Below are positions 39,001-45,000 of a DNA stretch of 45,470 bases, one piece after another. Position numbers: made by a program. The stretch comes from a virus (lineage: Duplodnaviria > Heunggongvirae > Uroviricota > Caudoviricetes): positions 1-45,470 of the IMG/VR virus record IMGVR_UViG_2537562188_000009, one strand, 5' to 3'. Position 1 is the first letter of the stretch; every line of letters starts with the position of its first letter.

Positions 39001-42000
39001 CAACATGTCGTAATCATTCAGTTTTATCACAGCGCAGCTCCAATATTAACTTTACAAATCAAGAATACATCAAGAATAAATTAACATGCAAGTTTCAAAA
39101 GGATAGAATACACTAAAATCAAGTTAATATTTATGTGTATAAAGCCTCGACAGGAACTCACCATGAAGAATGTAAAAAGCACAGAAAATCGGATAGCAAT
39201 GATGCTGAAAACGAAAGGCTGGAGTCAGGCTGAACTAGCCCGTAAGCTGGGTGTAAGCGCGCAATCAGTACAATACTGGACTACAGGAAAGACGTTTCCC
39301 AGAAGCGATAAACTTGCACAGCTATCAGTAATTAGTGGTTATCCACAATCCTGGTTTTTGGGTGAAGATACCTCATCGACACACTCTTCAGCTGAAAAAC
39401 ACCATACAAGAGAAGACAGCGTTGTGTTCAATGTGCTGGATGTTGAATTCAGCTGCGGCGACGGAACTCATGTTCGGGGAGATCTAATTGATGTAGTACG
39501 CTCAATAGAACTTGATCCTGAATATGCCCGCCGCCTGGTCGGTAACAGAGCATTCAAGAACATAGAAATCGGTAACGCCAGAGGGGACAGCATGGCCCCA
39601 ACAATCGCCCCAGGTGACTTACTGTTTTTAGATAAAACAGTAACTTATTTTGACGGTGATGGCATTTATGCATTTTGCTTTGATGGCGAATGTTACGTCA
39701 AACGACTTCAAAAAATTGGAAGCAAGATCATGGTCTTATCAGACAATCCCAACTATCAGCCGTGGAGCATCGAAAAAGAGGGAATGGCGCTGCTATATAT
39801 CCAGTCAAAAGTCATCTCATCGGTACCATTCAATATCAACAGATTTGGTTAGTTATTGATTTTAAATTAAATTATTGGTCACACATTACAAAAAAATCAA
39901 GTTTATCAATTTTTGATTGACACACGTTTTCCTGATACATAATATCTCACCATCAATTATATATTGATTAACTTCAACTTAGAATTGCATGGTGATGATA
40001 TGGAAGCCTTACAAACAACACCAAAAACATGTAGCCTCAATACTTACAACAAGGTTTTATGTGATGATTTAGACCTCGATTCTTTTGCATTAACCATCGC
40101 AAACCTGCTCAGTGCTGTTCGCACCTTCAACCTCCTGGATGATACGCGATTAAAAGAGGTTGGGTTTGATGTGCTGGAATTTACTCATGAATATGCTTTA
40201 GCGATCGCATCGACAAAACAACAACATTCTATTCGCTCAGGCAACAAGATAGCCTGCATACGCACCAAACGTGAAGCCTGCGGCTTAACAACTGCCGAAC
40301 TCGCCAGGCTGCTCGATCTCGATGAAGAAATTATCATCCAGTGGGAGAGCGGAGAGTACGAACCAACCATCAGCATGCTTATCCCCCTGGCAAACGTCCT
40401 GGGATGCGATCCGCTTTCTCTGCTGAGTGAAAAAAACAGCGAGTCAGTTATTCGCGTAAATGTGCCTGAAGTCCATGTGGAAAGTATTGGCGCACGCATC
40501 AAAAGCGCCCGTACAAAACTGGGATTAACCGAATCTGATCTTGCCCGCATGATTCATACCTATAGTGACCCCATAAACGACTGGGAATGCGGCATCCATG
40601 AAGTTCCAGCTGCTCAGATAGTACCACTGGCCAGTGCGCTTAATTGTGACTTGATGTGGTTGTTAACGGGAAAATCAGAAGCAAAGGAGTAGCAACAATG
40701 ACTGGCAATATCCATGATAAGTATGAAGGCTTATGCCTGGCACCGGATTCCTTTGCAAACAATATCCATAATTTATTATGCGCAGTTGTTGTATTACAAA
40801 TGTCAGACAACGATGCAATAAAAAGAACAGGTGATGAAGTTCTTGAATTTGCACGTTGCTATGCTGAAGCAGCTGCTGAAAAAGAACTAACCAGTTAAAT
40901 AGAACAAGTCATCTCCGGATAATATATTACGGCTTAATCGCCGGGGATTATCACACCCTTAATCCACAGGAGGTTTTATATGACCTTTATAAAACATAAG
41001 GCATCACACAAAACAGCCTGCCTTATTGCACAGCACGGGAAAAATCACATGCATATTGCCTGCTTGTTTCTGCGTAAAGCATACGGGAGATAATAATGCA
41101 TCAGAAAACAGCAGAACACGAACAAACCAGAGTATTGCTGACCATCAAAAACGGGAAAGTAATATTAATTCGTCATGTTCATGACGATGAATTTGTAGGA
41201 AATCTTTCAACATTCCTGTTTATTGCAGAAAAGGCAGGATATGACGTTATTGCACCAGCAGATGAAGATGAGGAATAAATTTCATGCACTACGCTGAATT
41301 CCAGGCTGAAGCAACAGCCAATGGTATACAAACAGGCAGTATGACTATTGATTATCACGACGCCATACGCCGTCTGGATGCTGGAGAATTCGATACTCCT
41401 AATGTGCGAGGTTTACGTATCCTTCAGTGTCTCGCGCAAGCTGACGAAGCAGGATTACTGGGAAAACTTCCGGTTGAGATGAAGGTTGCCCAGTGGCGAT
41501 GGTTGTATGTGACGACATTCATCAACGAAGAAGAAGACAAGAACGGCACAATTGATGTCCCGAATGAACACGGAACAACAGATCGCGCCGTAATATATAA
41601 CGGGAAGCATGGAGTTATGACTATATACCCTAGTCCCATTCGGTTTGCCTTACAGCAGTATATTGAATGGAATTTAATTCAAACATATGGCGAGGCTGAG
41701 GGAATGGGAAGAGCGCTGTTTCTTTATCAGAAAATGCTCACCACTTCCCCTGATAAAGGTTTCATTCTTTCAGATATAGGTCGAGAAGGGCTTGAACTCC
41801 TTCTGGATGAAATAATTAACGACCTGAATACTCATGGTATGCCAGAAGGCCAGTGACACATTAAATATTAAGAAGAATATAACTCTTCCGTTTTTTACTA
41901 ACCGTTTATATGAAAAGCGACCGTGAATTAAGCAGAGTAAAACTGCTTTTAATCCTTGCCACAGTACTGACACTAACAGAAATCATTATTCTCTTTATTG

Positions 42001-45000
42001 CGCTGTCTGTCAGTTAAAAATATCGGGATACCACATACCAATGAGACTGTATTTCACAATAGTAATTTTACTGGCAATTATCGCATGCATTTACGGATTA
42101 CTCGTTCCGTTCCTTATATCCATGAAGGATACGAGAGCAGTTATTTCTGGCTTTGCACTGGCGTTTCTGACCCCGCCCTGCATTTATGCCATTTACAAGG
42201 GTCTTTCTTTCACTAAGGATAAAAAATGAAAAAAATTATTTTTGCTTTAGCCATTGTTCTGCCGACCATTGGTCTTGTCGGTTGCGATCGCGTTGAGCCC
42301 GGTAATGTTGGCATCAAAGTAAATAAACTGGGCGACGATAAAGGCGTCGGTGAGGTGGTCGGTGTTGGTCGCTACTGGACTGGCTGGAATACTGAAGTTT
42401 ACATCTTCCCCACCTTCAAGCAAATGAAGACCTACGATGAACCGTTCAGCTTTCAGATGAGTGACGGCACAACCATCGGCTATCACATCGGTGTGGCCTA
42501 CAAGGTTGATCCATCCAAAGTTACTACAGTGTTTCAAACCTACCGCAAAGGCGTGGATGACATTACCGACACTGACCTGCGCCAGAAGATAGCCGACGCA
42601 CTCAACCGACTGGCCAGCAAAATGACCACCGATAAATTTATCGACGGTGGCAAGTCTGAACTGCTGGATTCAGCACTTAAAGATATTCAGGCAGAAATGA
42701 CCCCCATCGGCATTCAGGTAATGAGCCTCTCTTATGTCGGTAAACCGGAATACCCGCCAACCGTGATCGACAGCATTAATGCCAAAGTCACAGCGAACCA
42801 GAAAACCCTGCAACGCGAACAGGAAGTAAAACAGCGCGAAGCGGAAGCCAACATGTTGCGCGCGGAAGCAGCCGGACAGGCTGACGCCATTCGCACAAAA
42901 GCCCAGGCCGAAGCCGATGCTATTCGTTTACGCGGTGAAGCTCTGCGCCAGAACCCCGGTGTTATGGAGCTGGAAGCCATCAATAAATGGAACGGCACAC
43001 TGCCGCAATACATGACCAGCGGTGCCAATACACCATTTATCCAGGTTAAATAACTTATATGCCCGGCAGGCCGCCGGGCTAAGGGAAAAGCAGATGAACA
43101 CCCATAATGCCCAACCGCAAATAATGAACTATGACCCGAATCTGACGTCATGCGGACGCATGGCAAAACAAACCGTTCGATTAACTTTCGGGTTATGGGA
43201 ATACCGCGAAACATTCGAAGTTACTGTCGGCGGCAATCTGACCGGACTGGATGTTATCAGTTGCGCTATTGAAAGCCTGTACGCAACACTGCCTTATGAA
43301 GAAGTCGAGGATGAGCGCACAGGGGGAACAGATATCATGGCCACCATTAATATTGGCGAACTGATATGTCAGGATGAAGACCTGTCCGGAGAGAGCTGGC
43401 TTGCTGGAATGCTTGTAGCTGCAGAAATTATCAGTATTGAACCCGCTACAAATATACGGCTCTGAAGTTCTCGCTATTCAGAGAACAGGAGAAAAAATGT
43501 TCGATTTGATTAATCAAGGACAACTGTATACCGACAGTGCCGGTTACCCGGTCAAAATTATTCACTGCATAAATAACATCGTGTTGTACAGAAGAATGGA
43601 TGGACGAACACAGTCGGTAAAAATAAACGATTTTAATGAACTGTTTGAACGAATCGATCACCAGGAATACCGACAAATTCTGGCAGAAACAGAACAAGAA
43701 GCTCATCTGAAAAAATTACGTGCCATGAAAAGGAAGTAAAGAATGAATAAAGCGTTTGAGCTATGGGTACGCCAGCGTTACGGCAATCGCTATGACCTGA
43801 CGCGAGATGTTGACGGTTTCTACTGCCGTGAAGTTGTGAAACGAATGTTTGACGTGTGGTGCCACTGCCGTGGATGAAAATTTTATGAGGTTGGCATGCA
43901 GACAATCATCTATCAGATAACCCCCAGCAAATGGTGTACGGAGAGAGTCCTCATTGCATCAACAGGGCTAAAGCCTGGCACCATTGAGCGGGCAAGAAGA
44001 AAGTCATGGATGCAGGGAAAAGAATACCGCCATTACGCTGTAGAAGGTGATCCGGGGCACTACAGTGAATGCCTGTACAACATCGAAGAAATTATGCGAT
44101 GGATCGAAAACCAGAAACAACCAGGTGCCAAAAATGCAAGTTCCGGTTAACCTGTTAATGCTCCTGGACGTCTGGGAGGTTTAATGAGTAACGCATCATA
44201 CCCGACAGGCGTTGAAAACCATGGCGGATCACTCCGCATATGGTTTCACTATAACGGCAAACGTGTCAGAGAAAACCTCGGTGTTCCTGACACCGCCAAA
44301 AACCGGAAGATCGCAGGTGAACTTCGCACTTCCGTTTGTTTTGCAATCAGAATGGGGAGTTTCGACTACGCCGCGCAGTTCCCTAATTCCCCTAACCTGA
44401 AACACTTTGGCTTGGGGAAAAGAGAGATAACAGTTAAGGCACTTTCGGAAAAATGGCTGGACCTTAAGAAAATAGAGATAGGAAGCAATGCATTCAGTCG
44501 GTATCAATCCGTGGTGAGAAACATGCTTCCTCGCATAGGGGAAAAACGTCTTGCTTCGTCTGTAACAAAGGAAGATTTACTGTTTATCAGGAAAGATTTG
44601 TTAACCGGGTATCATAATCTCTCTAATGGAAAAACAACGCCGGTTAAAGGGAGATCGGTAGTTACGGTTAATTACTACATGACGACAATTGCAGGAATGT
44701 TTCAATTTGCTGCTGATAACGGCTATATCGGGTCAAACCCATTTAACGGGCTGACACCATTAAAGAGATCAAGAACAGAGCCAGATCCGCTCACGCGTGA
44801 CGAATTTATTCGCTTTATTGATGCCTGTCACCATCAACAAACGAAAAACCTGTGGTCCTTAGCAGTATACACAGGCATTCGTCACGGTGAGCTAATAGCT
44901 CTCGCCTGGGAGGATATTGATTTAAAAGATAAAACAATGACTATCCGTCGTAATTATACAAAACTCGGGGAGTTCACTCTACCAAAAACAGAGGCGGGAA

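What the first reader, a model, noticed from the sequence alone, without database searches (positions are those of the whole stretch)
41910..43053. Leftward-operon membrane module: hydrophobic peptide, 2-TM protein and SPFH lipoprotein
In the position where lambda carries rex and superinfection-exclusion genes, this prophage has a 62-aa two-helix membrane protein whose stop overlaps the start of a 275-aa SPFH/band-7 lipoprotein (lipobox LVGC, long C-terminal coiled coil). A possible 35-aa single-TM peptide precedes them. SPFH proteins paired with small membrane partners scaffold membrane complexes, and the placement suggests a superinfection-exclusion or abortive-infection role. I do not recognise this as a characterised prophage system.
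Basis: inference. Interest (0 to 1): 0.6.

Follow-up and report, generated by a model that had tools for sequence, protein, structure and literature searches.

The report
Phage SPFH lipoprotein with membrane partner
The two genes are real and form a membrane gene pair of unknown function that is conserved in many phages, including strictly lytic ones such as coliphage N4, so it is more likely an early infection function than a prophage defence gene.

Summary
A 62-aa two-helix membrane protein (42041-42229) ends in an ATGA overlap with a 275-aa SPFH/Band 7 lipoprotein (42226-43053; Pfam E 7.6e-31; lipobox LVGC, Asp at +2).

The AlphaFold model matches whole chains of cage-forming SPFH proteins such as HflK/C, prohibitin, erlin and stomatin.

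The pair is not specific to prophages. The same small protein, with a conserved loop motif P-x-[LM]-[IV]-S-x-x-[DS]...G, sits directly upstream of the lipoprotein in 13 of 19 diverged SPFH clusters. These include N4 (gp19-gp20), rV5-like, P2-like and HK97-like phages and Pseudomonas, Burkholderia and Stenotrophomonas phages. Partner homology across lineages is supported by hhalign (97% probability). Six of eight distant partner hits, found without any genomic context, are followed by a Band_7 gene.

In this Stx2 prophage the pair lies in the operon running from the repressor towards int, downstream of a promoter-like site next to an operator-like repeat. It has no detectable promoter of its own. 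Expression on induction is therefore more likely than expression in the lysogen.

The 35-aa ORF is not part of the conserved unit.

There is no PADLOC hit and I found no published function.

My best guess is a split HflK-like cage on the periplasmic face of the inner membrane, made early in infection. Its job is unknown; superinfection exclusion or envelope protection leads only narrowly.

The parts
42041..42229 (+). 62-aa inner-membrane hairpin protein, the partner of the SPFH lipoprotein. It has two transmembrane helices joined by a short conserved loop (VPFLISMKDT...G) and a basic C-terminal tail. Predicted topology: N-terminus in, C-terminus in, loop in the periplasm.
   Evidence: Hydropathy. 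phrog_1130, E 1.2e-22. Motif alignment A5 across 15 phage lineages. hhalign of the enterobacterial set against the pseudomonad/burkholderia set: 97.2% probability, E 3.2e-11. 90 clusters at 50% identity in the all-protein library, all 36-91 aa. Mean K+R counts are 0.9 at the N-terminus, 0.7 in the loop and 3.8 at the C-terminus. No Pfam or PDB match.
42226..43053 (+). 275-aa SPFH/Band 7 lipoprotein. Signal peptide 1-19, lipobox L17-V18-G19-C20 with Asp21. SPFH1/SPFH2 domains about residues 22-175, long helix 178-242, short helix 244-253. Invariant C-terminal motif KW[ND]GxLP...PF.
   Evidence: Pfam Band_7, E 7.6e-31. phrog_200, E 5.4e-114. AF2 model, mean pLDDT 79. Foldseek top hits are HflK/C 7vhq (E 5e-13), prohibitin 8rrh, erlin, stomatin, flotillin and QmcA-YbbJ 8z5g. 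Invariant Cys and C-terminal motif in alignment A3. Strong purifying selection: 135 of 162 variable sites fall at third codon positions.
42226..42229 (+). ATGA stop/start overlap, implying translational coupling of the two genes.
   Evidence: Read directly from the sequence. In 13 of 19 diverged SPFH clusters a motif-bearing partner lies directly upstream; where it abuts the SPFH gene its stop falls about 47-54 nt before the lipobox Cys codon, at the SPFH start. In L234 there is a small gap and in Mydo one intervening gene.
41910..42017 (+). 35-aa hydrophobic ORF. Doubtful as a gene, and not part of the conserved module.
   Evidence: No Shine-Dalgarno sequence. No family hit. Not called by PGAP. 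Present only when the phrog_1515 gene is the left neighbour, and absent from 30 of 80 close loci and from all other lineages. Its codon-position pattern is not that of a constrained gene.
39887..39945 (+). Operator-like 20-mer (39887-39906) plus a sigma-70-like promoter (TTGACA-17-TAATAT, 39917-39945). This is the probable repressor-controlled start of the operon that contains the pair.
   Evidence: Promoter scan, 10 of 12 matches. The 20-mer recurs at 85% identity at 39109-39128, just before the CI-like repressor gene. The repressor has HTH and Peptidase_S24 domains. No + strand promoter-like site lies in the 184 nt between the upstream gene and the pair (41857-42040). One 9-of-12 match lies inside the 62-aa gene, at 42053-42081. 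No + strand terminator-like site lies between 41500 and 44224.

Best explanation
This is a two-gene phage membrane module, not a prophage defence island.

What the two proteins are. The first gene makes a 62-aa inner-membrane hairpin whose short conserved loop faces the periplasm. The second gene is translated in a fixed ratio through the ATGA overlap. It makes an SPFH lipoprotein that is exported, lipidated at Cys20 and, because of Asp at +2, probably retained on the outer face of the inner membrane.

How they probably assemble. The lipoprotein has the full anatomy of cage-forming SPFH proteins, so I infer that it oligomerises into an HflK/C-like dome over a patch of inner membrane. In HflK/C, each subunit's own N-terminal helix forms a transmembrane fence around that patch. 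Here the hairpin would supply the fence in trans, making a 'split' SPFH protein.

When it is made. In this prophage the pair is transcribed with the repressor-controlled early operon that runs towards xis-int. It would therefore appear after induction or infection, as it does by position in P2-like and virulent phages.

What it does. This is the least certain step. I take the most likely job to be conditioning the envelope of an already infected cell, chiefly by hindering genome entry or envelope damage from further phages. That would be superinfection exclusion in the manner of the T4 early membrane proteins Imm and Sp.

What is shown and what is inferred:
- Shown: gene anatomy, fold, family membership, conservation of the pair, and its position in the genome.
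- Inferred: localisation, cage assembly, contact between the two proteins, timing of expression, and function.
For: - Anatomy.
- Fold: full-length matches to HflK/C, prohibitin, erlin, stomatin, flotillin and QmcA cages.
- Pair conservation: a motif-bearing 2-TM partner lies directly upstream of the lipoprotein in 13 of 19 SPFH clusters below 90% identity. Two more clusters have another small multi-TM protein there. The lineages include N4 gp19-gp20, Mydo, phiE125 gp44-gp43, P88 and Fraca.
- Partner homology across lineages: hhalign 97.2% probability.
- Reciprocal test: 6 of 8 distant partner hits from a context-free library are followed at once by a Band_7 lipoprotein gene.
- Topology: positive-inside charge counts place the conserved loop in the periplasm.
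- Asp at +2 in 101 of 134 homologues with a detectable lipobox.
- Early-operon position: CI-like repressor, shared operator-like 20-mer, promoter-like site, and no promoter-like site in the gap directly upstream of the pair and no + strand terminator-like site from there to int. In P88 the pair lies between cox and the replication gene. In N4 it lies directly after the RNAPII genes.
- Phage rather than plasmid origin: 593 of 612 plasmid hits are non-mobilizable, and the listed records are 92-114 kb, a size I read as P1-like or pMT1/SSU5-like phage-plasmids.
- Room for an exclusion role: N4's superinfection exclusion system is explicitly unidentified (PMC12642591). In phage PhiSH19 the SPFH gene lies next to an annotated superinfection exclusion gene (PMC3220722).
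Against: - No experiment bears on function, and no sequence link exists to any known exclusion protein.
- Oligomerisation and contact between the two proteins were not modelled.
- The mature lipoprotein of P88 is 93% identical to this one while its partner is only 24% identical. Any contact must therefore rest on a few conserved residues, or be loose.
- Some lineages lack the partner: Bruynoghevirus PaCe, Erwinia phage Panisse and locus L244.
- The +2 residue is Glu, Ser, Tyr or Gly in other branches, so inner-membrane retention is not assured across the family.
- The operator and promoter assignment rests on consensus scans only.
- A Pasteurella prophage HflK/C-like protein is reported to be made by the lysogen and released in outer-membrane vesicles (PMC9872710). 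If it is homologous, it argues for lysogen expression and outer-membrane sorting.
- N4 rapid-lysis screens did not recover gp19 or gp20 mutants.
Confidence: 0.3

Rival explanations
1. FtsH/protease modulator. The periplasm-facing SPFH assembly mimics or invades the host HflK/C cage. This would change FtsH access to substrates and stabilise phage proteins such as CII-like regulators and Xis, or alter membrane-protein turnover during infection.
For: The closest solved relatives by sequence and by fold are HflK and HflC. NCBIfam's best, sub-threshold, hits are hflC and hflK. The protein sits on the same side of the membrane as HflK/C. The pair lies in the same operon as xis-int. The idea has been raised for Bruynoghevirus phages (PMC8540360).
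Against: - Identity to HflK is only about 18%, and scores are far below the equivalog cut-offs (24.9 against 134.4 bits).
- There is one SPFH gene, not a K/C pair, and a lipid anchor in place of a transmembrane helix.
- The module is common in strictly virulent phages that make no lysogeny decision.
- No FtsH-binding feature could be tested.
Confidence: 0.2
2. Membrane-stress or lysis-timing function. The cage stabilises the inner membrane or proton-motive force during heavy phage production, or restrains holin triggering. This would delay lysis and raise the burst size.
For: Bacterial SPFH proteins are tied to membrane stress responses, as in B. subtilis YdjI/SamI with PspA (titles and abstracts listed). 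The module occurs in phages with large bursts and lysis inhibition, such as N4 (PMC12642591). Early expression together with late benefit would fit both temperate and virulent phages.
Against: - More than 60 N4 rapid-lysis mutants mapped to gp61, gp63, vRNAP and the terminal repeats, and none to gp19 or gp20.
- The module is never adjacent to lysis cassettes in the loci examined. In this window the holin, lysozyme and Rz1 genes lie 18 kb away on the other strand.
Confidence: 0.2
3. This is a prophage-expressed lysogenic-conversion module that protects the lysogen by superinfection exclusion or abortive infection, like rexAB, sieB or cor.
For: Many temperate-phage exclusion proteins are small membrane proteins or lipoproteins (general knowledge). 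The stretch just upstream is AT-rich, 34-36% GC, which would suit a cryptic promoter. A Pasteurella prophage SPFH protein is reportedly produced by the lysogen (PMC9872710).
Against: - No promoter-like or terminator-like site isolates the pair from the early operon.
- The pair sits in repressed early operons in P2-like and lambdoid relatives.
- It is abundant in virulent phages, where a lysogen-protecting or self-sacrificing function makes no sense.
- There are no PADLOC hits.
Confidence: 0.12
4. Host-directed virulence lipoprotein. The lipidated SPFH protein is released in vesicles from the STEC lysogen and acts on the animal host as a TLR2 agonist, as reported for Pasteurella PM0222.
For: PMC9872710 describes a prophage-island HflK/C-like protein. 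It was found in outer-membrane vesicles, signalled through TLR1/2, and its deletion attenuated virulence in mice. The window is a Shiga-toxin prophage.
Against: Homology between PM0222 and this family was not checked. The family is spread across environmental and plant-pathogen phages (Erwinia, Caulobacter, Stenotrophomonas, Rhodobacter) and virulent phages, so a host-directed role cannot be the conserved one. TLR2 activation is a generic property of bacterial lipoproteins.
Confidence: 0.05

Closest known systems
HflK/HflC of E. coli (SPFH cage around FtsH; PDB 7vhq, 7wi3, 9cz2)
   Same: The SPFH1/SPFH2 domains, long coiled-coil helix and C-terminal cap segment align over the full length (Foldseek E 5e-13). 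HflK is also the best sequence hit in the PDB (E 7e-4). The bulk of the protein lies on the periplasmic side of the inner membrane, anchored at its N-terminus.
   Different: There is a single gene, not a K/C heteropair. The anchor is a lipid, not a transmembrane helix. The protein is about 18% identical and far below the hflK/hflC equivalog cut-offs. It has a dedicated 2-TM partner that HflK/C lack. It is encoded by phages. No link to FtsH has been shown.
SPFH-NfeD operon pairs (E. coli QmcA-YbbJ, PDB 8z5g; YqiJ-YqiK; B. subtilis NfeD-flotillin pairs)
   Same: An SPFH gene is paired, often with overlap, with a small multi-pass membrane protein gene in one operon. The solved QmcA-YbbJ complex is a structural match for the SPFH part.
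   Different: The phage partner has no NfeD/OB-fold domain. It has no Pfam hit at E up to 1, and YbbJ scores only E 5.1 against the partner profile. It is a bare hairpin of about 50-90 aa. From general knowledge, QmcA faces the cytoplasm, whereas this protein is exported.
Coliphage N4 gp19-gp20 and other phage members of phrog_1130 / phrog_200
   Same: These are direct homologues. N4 gp20 is 62% identical to the lipoprotein. gp19 is a 68-aa hairpin carrying the same loop motif, and it overlaps gp20.
   Different: N4 is strictly virulent, and the +2 residue after the lipid-modified Cys is Tyr rather than Asp. No function is known for these either.
T4 Imm and Sp (early membrane proteins that exclude superinfecting phage)
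   Same: This is a functional analogy only. They are small early-expressed envelope proteins of an infected cell that act at the inner membrane or periplasm. This rests on general knowledge and the summary in PMC12642591.
   Different: There is no sequence or fold relationship. Imm and Sp are not SPFH proteins and are not lipoproteins.
Pasteurella multocida prophage protein PM0222 (HflK/C-like)
   Same: It is a prophage-encoded SPFH-family protein, and the only one I found with experimental data (PMC9872710).
   Different: It was studied as a virulence factor and TLR1/2 agonist, not for phage biology. Its homology to this family and the presence of a partner gene were not checked.

Membership tests
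SPFH / Band 7 superfamily (Pfam PF01145) | Band_7 domain profile match above the gathering score | tested here: met
   108 bits against a cut-off of 23.6, E 7.6e-31, residues 22-208
SPFH / Band 7 superfamily (Pfam PF01145) | SPFH1/SPFH2 alpha-beta domains followed by a long coiled-coil helix and a C-terminal segment, as in the cage-forming members | tested here: met
   AF2 model, pLDDT 79, strands over 19-94 and 163-175, helix 178-242. Full-length Foldseek matches to HflK/C, prohibitin, erlin, stomatin and flotillin.
SPFH / Band 7 superfamily (Pfam PF01145) | Assembly into a membrane-apposed ring or dome | not testable with these tools
   Only monomer prediction was available. The invariant C-terminal motif has low monomer confidence. 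That would be expected of a segment that folds only in an oligomer, but it is not a test.
HflK / HflC FtsH modulators | Match to the hflK or hflC equivalog models above their cut-offs | tested here: not met
   TIGR01932, 24.9 bits against 134.4. TIGR01933, 22.7 bits against 159.4.
HflK / HflC FtsH modulators | N-terminal transmembrane helix and a heteromeric K/C gene pair | tested here: not met
   The protein has a lipoprotein signal peptide with a lipobox instead of a transmembrane anchor, and there is only one SPFH gene in the locus.
SPFH-NfeD operon pair | Adjacent or overlapping membrane-protein gene in the same operon as the SPFH gene | tested here: met
   ATGA overlap, conserved across lineages
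SPFH-NfeD operon pair | Partner carries the NfeD (PF01957) domain | tested here: not met
   None of 15 diverse partners gave an NfeD hit at E up to 1. E. coli YbbJ scores E 5.1 against the partner profile. All 90 library relatives are only 36-91 aa long.
Bacterial lipoprotein (Lgt/Lsp substrate) | Basic n-region, hydrophobic h-region and a lipobox [LVI][ASTVI][GAS]C near residue 20 | tested here: met
   MKK / IIFALAIVLPTIG / LVGC20. The Cys is invariant in alignment A3. Actual lipidation was not tested.
Bacterial lipoprotein (Lgt/Lsp substrate) | Inner-membrane retention signal (Asp at +2 in Enterobacteria) | tested here: met
   The sequence is Cys20-Asp21-Arg22. Asp is at +2 in 101 of 134 homologues with a detectable lipobox. 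Localisation itself is untested.
Known anti-phage defence systems (PADLOC-DB 2.0) | Profile match of any component | tested here: not met
   No hits at E up to 0.1 for the 35-aa, 62-aa and SPFH proteins or for four neighbours
Known superinfection exclusion proteins (T4 Imm/Sp, P22 SieA/SieB, lambda SieB, Cor/Llp) | Sequence-family match | tested here: not met
   Pfam and PHROGs returned only Band_7/phrog_200 and phrog_1130, the latter described simply as 'membrane protein'.
Holins (class II / pinholin) | Two-TM small protein encoded in a lysis cassette with an endolysin and spanin | tested here: not met
   The partner lies in early operons, never next to lysis genes. The window's own holin, lysozyme and Rz1 genes are at 22469-24557 on the other strand. 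The only holin profile hit is one member at E 0.038.
PHROG families 200 and 1130 | Profile match | tested here: met
   phrog_200, E 5.4e-114. phrog_1130, E 1.2e-22.

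The most novel reading that the evidence does not exclude
The pair is a pan-phage 'split SPFH cage'. A lipid-anchored SPFH dome on the periplasmic face of the inner membrane would be fenced by a ring of partner hairpins. Phages would build it early in infection to close the infected cell's inner membrane to incoming phage genomes. On this reading N4 gp19-gp20 would be N4's long-sought superinfection exclusion system, and this would be the first defined function for a viral SPFH protein.
Probability: 0.15. Interest if true: 0.75.

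Novelty: new variant of a known kind. Interest (0 to 1): 0.5.

Why it matters

This analysis shows that the phage lipoprotein version nearly always comes with a specific small hairpin partner that has no Pfam family. It also shows that the pair spans temperate and virulent phages of several bacterial phyla, including the model phage N4.

That turns an anonymous 'SPFH domain-containing protein' annotation, present in hundreds of E. coli genomes and Shiga-toxin phages, into a defined two-component unit. The unit can be deleted, expressed and imaged in tractable systems.

If it proves to be an exclusion or envelope-conditioning device, it would bear on phage-phage competition. It would also bear on the unexplained trigger of lysis inhibition in N4, and on how SPFH cages work when the membrane anchor is supplied in trans.

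Tried and rejected
- **Defence-system membership.** PADLOC gave nothing for the three ORFs or four neighbours.
- **'Serine protease' annotation** (phiP27 L05 and the Stx2 phage records). There is no protease domain. The only Pfam hit for the SPFH protein is Band_7. The name probably carries over from 'membrane protease subunit, stomatin/prohibitin homologue' labels.
- **'RIIB lysis inhibitor' label** on a Klebsiella phage homologue. This is an annotation artefact, because the features in that record are marked pseudo and partial and appear misplaced relative to the sequence. The BFVD fold search shows no rII relatives.
- **NfeD-like partner.** Rejected.
- **Partner as a holin.** Rejected on genomic context.
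- **35-aa ORF as a third component.** Rejected for the conserved module.
- **Non-coding RNA in the region.** Rfam found nothing meaningful across 39800-44200.
- **Plasmid hits as a sign of a conjugative-plasmid function.** 593 of 612 are non-mobilizable, and the listed records are of phage-plasmid size.
- **Searching for distant loci.** Two viral-contig scans with the window protein listed first returned only near-identical loci. A scan with a Pseudomonas homologue was needed to reach diversity.
- **Literature.** Searches on SPFH combined with prophage, anti-phage, abortive infection, phage defense, N4 and lipoprotein found no functional study. The CRISPRi-ART paper's main text gave no data on N4 gp19/gp20. 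Its supplements were not searched.

Full report
**1. What is in the sequence**

On the + strand the window carries three ORFs:
- a 35-aa ORF at 41910-42017;
- a 62-aa ORF at 42041-42229;
- a 275-aa ORF at 42226-43053.

The last two share an ATGA stop/start overlap, and an AAGGA ribosome-binding site precedes the second start. The 35-aa ORF has no comparable site.

The 275-aa protein matches Pfam Band_7 over residues 22-208 (E 7.6e-31). Its N-terminus is MKK-IIFALAIVLPTIG-LVGC followed by Asp-Arg. This is a classical lipoprotein signal peptide with the enterobacterial +2 Asp retention signal.

The 62-aa protein has two hydrophobic helices separated by a very short polar loop, and a Lys-rich tail.

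**2. Where the window comes from**

The region is identical to an E. coli O91 RM7190 prophage inserted next to yecE/yecN. That prophage carries stx2 and resembles phiP27. PGAP annotates the 62-aa gene as hypothetical and the next gene as 'SPFH domain-containing protein'. It does not call the 35-aa ORF. GenBank phage records call the lipoprotein 'serine protease', which no domain search supports.

**3. The pair is a conserved unit and is not prophage-specific**

The lipoprotein belongs to phrog_200 and the small protein to phrog_1130.

A tblastn search finds the lipoprotein in 414 phage records. These include:
- phiP27-like Stx phages;
- P2-like P88;
- HK97-like Fraca;
- coliphage N4 (gp20, 62% identity);
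- N4-like Erwinia, Klebsiella and Stenotrophomonas phages;
- rV5/PVP-SE1-like myoviruses;
- Pseudomonas and Burkholderia phages;
- phiCbK, crAss-like and Lak phages.

Plasmid hits are overwhelmingly non-mobilizable (593 of 612), and the listed records are 92-114 kb, the size of phage-plasmids.

In P88, Fraca, N4, phiE125 and others, the gene directly upstream is a small ORF overlapping the lipoprotein start.

I clustered all fetched loci by mature lipoprotein sequence at 90% identity, which gave 19 clusters:
- 13 have a 49-102 aa two-helix protein directly upstream carrying the loop motif P-x-[LM]-[IV]-S-x-x-[DS]...G. Where it abuts the SPFH gene, its stop falls about 50 nt before the lipobox Cys codon, at the SPFH start. 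In Pokken this ORF is unannotated. In Mydo one small gene intervenes.
- 2 have another small multi-TM protein there (crAss-like IAS virus and phiCbK).
- 3 lack a partner (PaCe, Panisse, L244).
- 1 could not be resolved.

A profile-profile comparison of enterobacterial partners against pseudomonad/burkholderia partners gives 97.2% probability, E 3.2e-11. The partners are therefore homologous, not just generic hairpins.

A profile of the partner was searched against 1.8 billion representative proteins with no context information. It finds 90 clusters, all 36-91 aa long. Of eight sampled across the E-value range, six are followed immediately by a Band_7 lipoprotein gene.

The partner has no Pfam family and no solved relative.

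**4. The 35-aa ORF**

The ORF stays open in about 50 close relatives, but only where the phrog_1515 gene is the left neighbour. In 30 of 80 close loci, homology begins about 10 nt inside the 62-aa gene and the upstream sequence is unrelated. No other lineage has the ORF.

Its variable sites are spread 10/4/10 over codon positions, with 7 silent sites against 17 in amino-acid-changing codons. The lipoprotein gene shows 16/11/135.

I treat it as unproven and outside the module. A minus-strand promoter-like site at 42013-41985 points antisense into it. I did not follow this up.

**5. Structure**

I predicted the structure with AlphaFold2 on a 32-sequence alignment spanning 40-95% identity. The model has mean pLDDT 79. 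It shows:
- SPFH1/SPFH2 alpha-beta domains;
- one 65-residue helix (178-242);
- a short second helix;
- a low-confidence C-terminus that carries the family's invariant KW[ND]GxLP...PF motif.

Foldseek aligns the whole chain to HflK and HflC (7vhq, E 5e-13), prohibitin, erlin, stomatin, flotillin and QmcA of the QmcA-YbbJ complex. All of these form membrane-apposed rings or domes. BFVD shows many viral SPFH proteins, none with a named function.

**6. Topology**

Across 115 motif-bearing partners, mean Lys+Arg counts are 0.9 at the N-terminus, 0.7 in the loop and 3.8 at the C-terminus. By the positive-inside rule the termini are cytoplasmic. The conserved loop is then periplasmic, on the same side as the exported lipoprotein.

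Asp follows the lipid-modified Cys in 101 of 134 homologues with a detectable lipobox. Other branches have Tyr, Glu, Ser or Gly.

**7. Expression context**

A CI-like repressor (HTH plus Peptidase_S24) is encoded at 39133/39163-39852. It diverges from a cro-like gene and the replication, late and structural genes on the other strand.

A 20-nt element occurs twice:
- just before the repressor gene (39109-39128);
- just before a TTGACA-17-TAATAT site at 39917-39945.

This layout looks like right and left operators.

From the second site, + strand genes run without a terminator-like site through an HTH protein, three small ORFs, the pair, DUF5406, DUF4222, xis and int. No promoter-like site was found in the 184 nt between the upstream gene and the pair.

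In P2-like P88 the pair sits between cox and the replication gene. In N4 it follows the RNAPII genes in the rightward block. By position, the module therefore belongs to early lytic transcription. This is inference from consensus scans and from knowledge of P2, lambda and N4 transcription maps, not a measurement.

**8. Mechanism**

I take the following as shown:
- an exported, lipid-anchored, full-length SPFH protein;
- production together with a homologous hairpin whose conserved loop faces the same compartment;
- conservation of the pair across very different phages.

I infer a 'split' HflK-like assembly. In it the hairpin provides the transmembrane fence that single-gene SPFH proteins provide with their own N-terminal helix. 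The product would be a dome over a patch of inner membrane on the periplasmic side.

What the dome does is open. I rank the readings as follows:
- envelope conditioning or superinfection exclusion during infection, first (0.3 for the whole statement);
- FtsH modulation (0.2);
- membrane-stress or lysis-timing support (0.2);
- a host-directed lipoprotein (0.05).

Points bearing on this ranking:
- N4's exclusion system is explicitly unknown (PMC12642591).
- The SPFH gene lies next to an annotated exclusion gene in PhiSH19.
- No gp19 or gp20 mutants appeared among N4 rapid lysers.
- Presence in obligately lytic phages weakens the lysogeny-decision reading and rules out an altruistic abortive role.
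- One caution is that P88's mature lipoprotein is 93% identical to this one while its partner is only 24% identical. Any contact must therefore rely on the few conserved loop residues.

**9. Comparison with known systems**

The protein is a member of the SPFH superfamily. It is not HflK or HflC, because the equivalog cut-offs are missed by more than 100 bits, it has a lipid anchor and there is a single gene.

The operon logic resembles SPFH-NfeD pairs, but the partner lacks the NfeD domain. It matches no PADLOC defence component and no known exclusion or holin family.

Eight literature searches found no functional study of the phage proteins. Authors note that the role is unclear (PMC13239085) or speculate about HflK/C and lysogeny (PMC8540360). 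One Pasteurella prophage SPFH protein was studied as a virulence factor (PMC9872710). Its homology to this family was not checked.

**10. Verdict**

This is an uncharacterised but widespread phage module, and a new variant of the SPFH-plus-partner theme. It is best described as an early infection function rather than a prophage defence island. Interest is moderate (0.5). It is testable directly in N4, P2-like phages and this prophage.

Noticed in passing
window 39109-39128 and 39887-39906: A 20-nt element, TACA[CA][TA]AAAATCAAGTT[AT]AT, occurs twice: just before the CI-like repressor gene, and just before a strong promoter-like site (TTGACA-17-TAATAT, 39917-39945). These are candidate right and left operators of this phiP27-type immunity region.
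   Followed up: partly
window 41985-42013 (minus strand): A promoter-like site (CTGACA-17-AATAAT, 10 of 12 matches) points antisense into the 35-aa hydrophobic ORF. The layout is reminiscent of type I toxin-antitoxin loci. Rfam found nothing here.
   Followed up: no
L002 (phage P88) 3750-4780 compared with window 42041-43053: There is a mosaic joint right after the signal peptide. The mature lipoproteins are 93% identical, but the signal peptides and upstream partner proteins are only about 24% identical. In 30 of 80 close loci a second joint lies about 10 nt inside the 62-aa gene.
   Followed up: partly
GenBank phage records, e.g. AJ298298.1 (L05), KC294142.1 and OY979426.1 (L259): Homologues of the SPFH lipoprotein are variously labelled 'serine protease', 'transposase fusion protein' and 'RIIB lysis inhibitor'. 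None is supported by domain or fold searches. In OY979426.1 the features are marked pseudo and partial and appear misplaced relative to the sequence.
   Followed up: yes
L088 (Stenotrophomonas phage Pokken) 1778-1990: There is an unannotated 70-aa two-helix ORF with the partner motif (LPYLFSARS...G) directly upstream of the annotated SPFH lipoprotein. The partner gene is therefore missed by annotation in some records.
   Followed up: yes
window 27270-29473: This stretch holds Shiga toxin 2 A and B subunit genes (27891-29131, minus strand), three tRNA genes just upstream (29222-29473) and an IraM-like anti-adapter gene on the opposite strand (27270-27593).
   Followed up: no
window about 7121-7361 compared with L246 6445-7361: The otherwise identical RM7190 prophage has about 676 extra bases between the tail-tip gene (gpJ) and the tail assembly gene. 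The window is therefore not colinear with that genome over its whole length.
   Followed up: no
L252/L253 1501-1776: A 91-aa protein carries the partner loop motif (VIPSLVSSADTLAVIAGL) but is not followed by an SPFH gene. It sits between DUF6012 and TcpQ-family genes, which suggests a conjugative-element context. It may be an orphan or a re-used partner.
   Followed up: no
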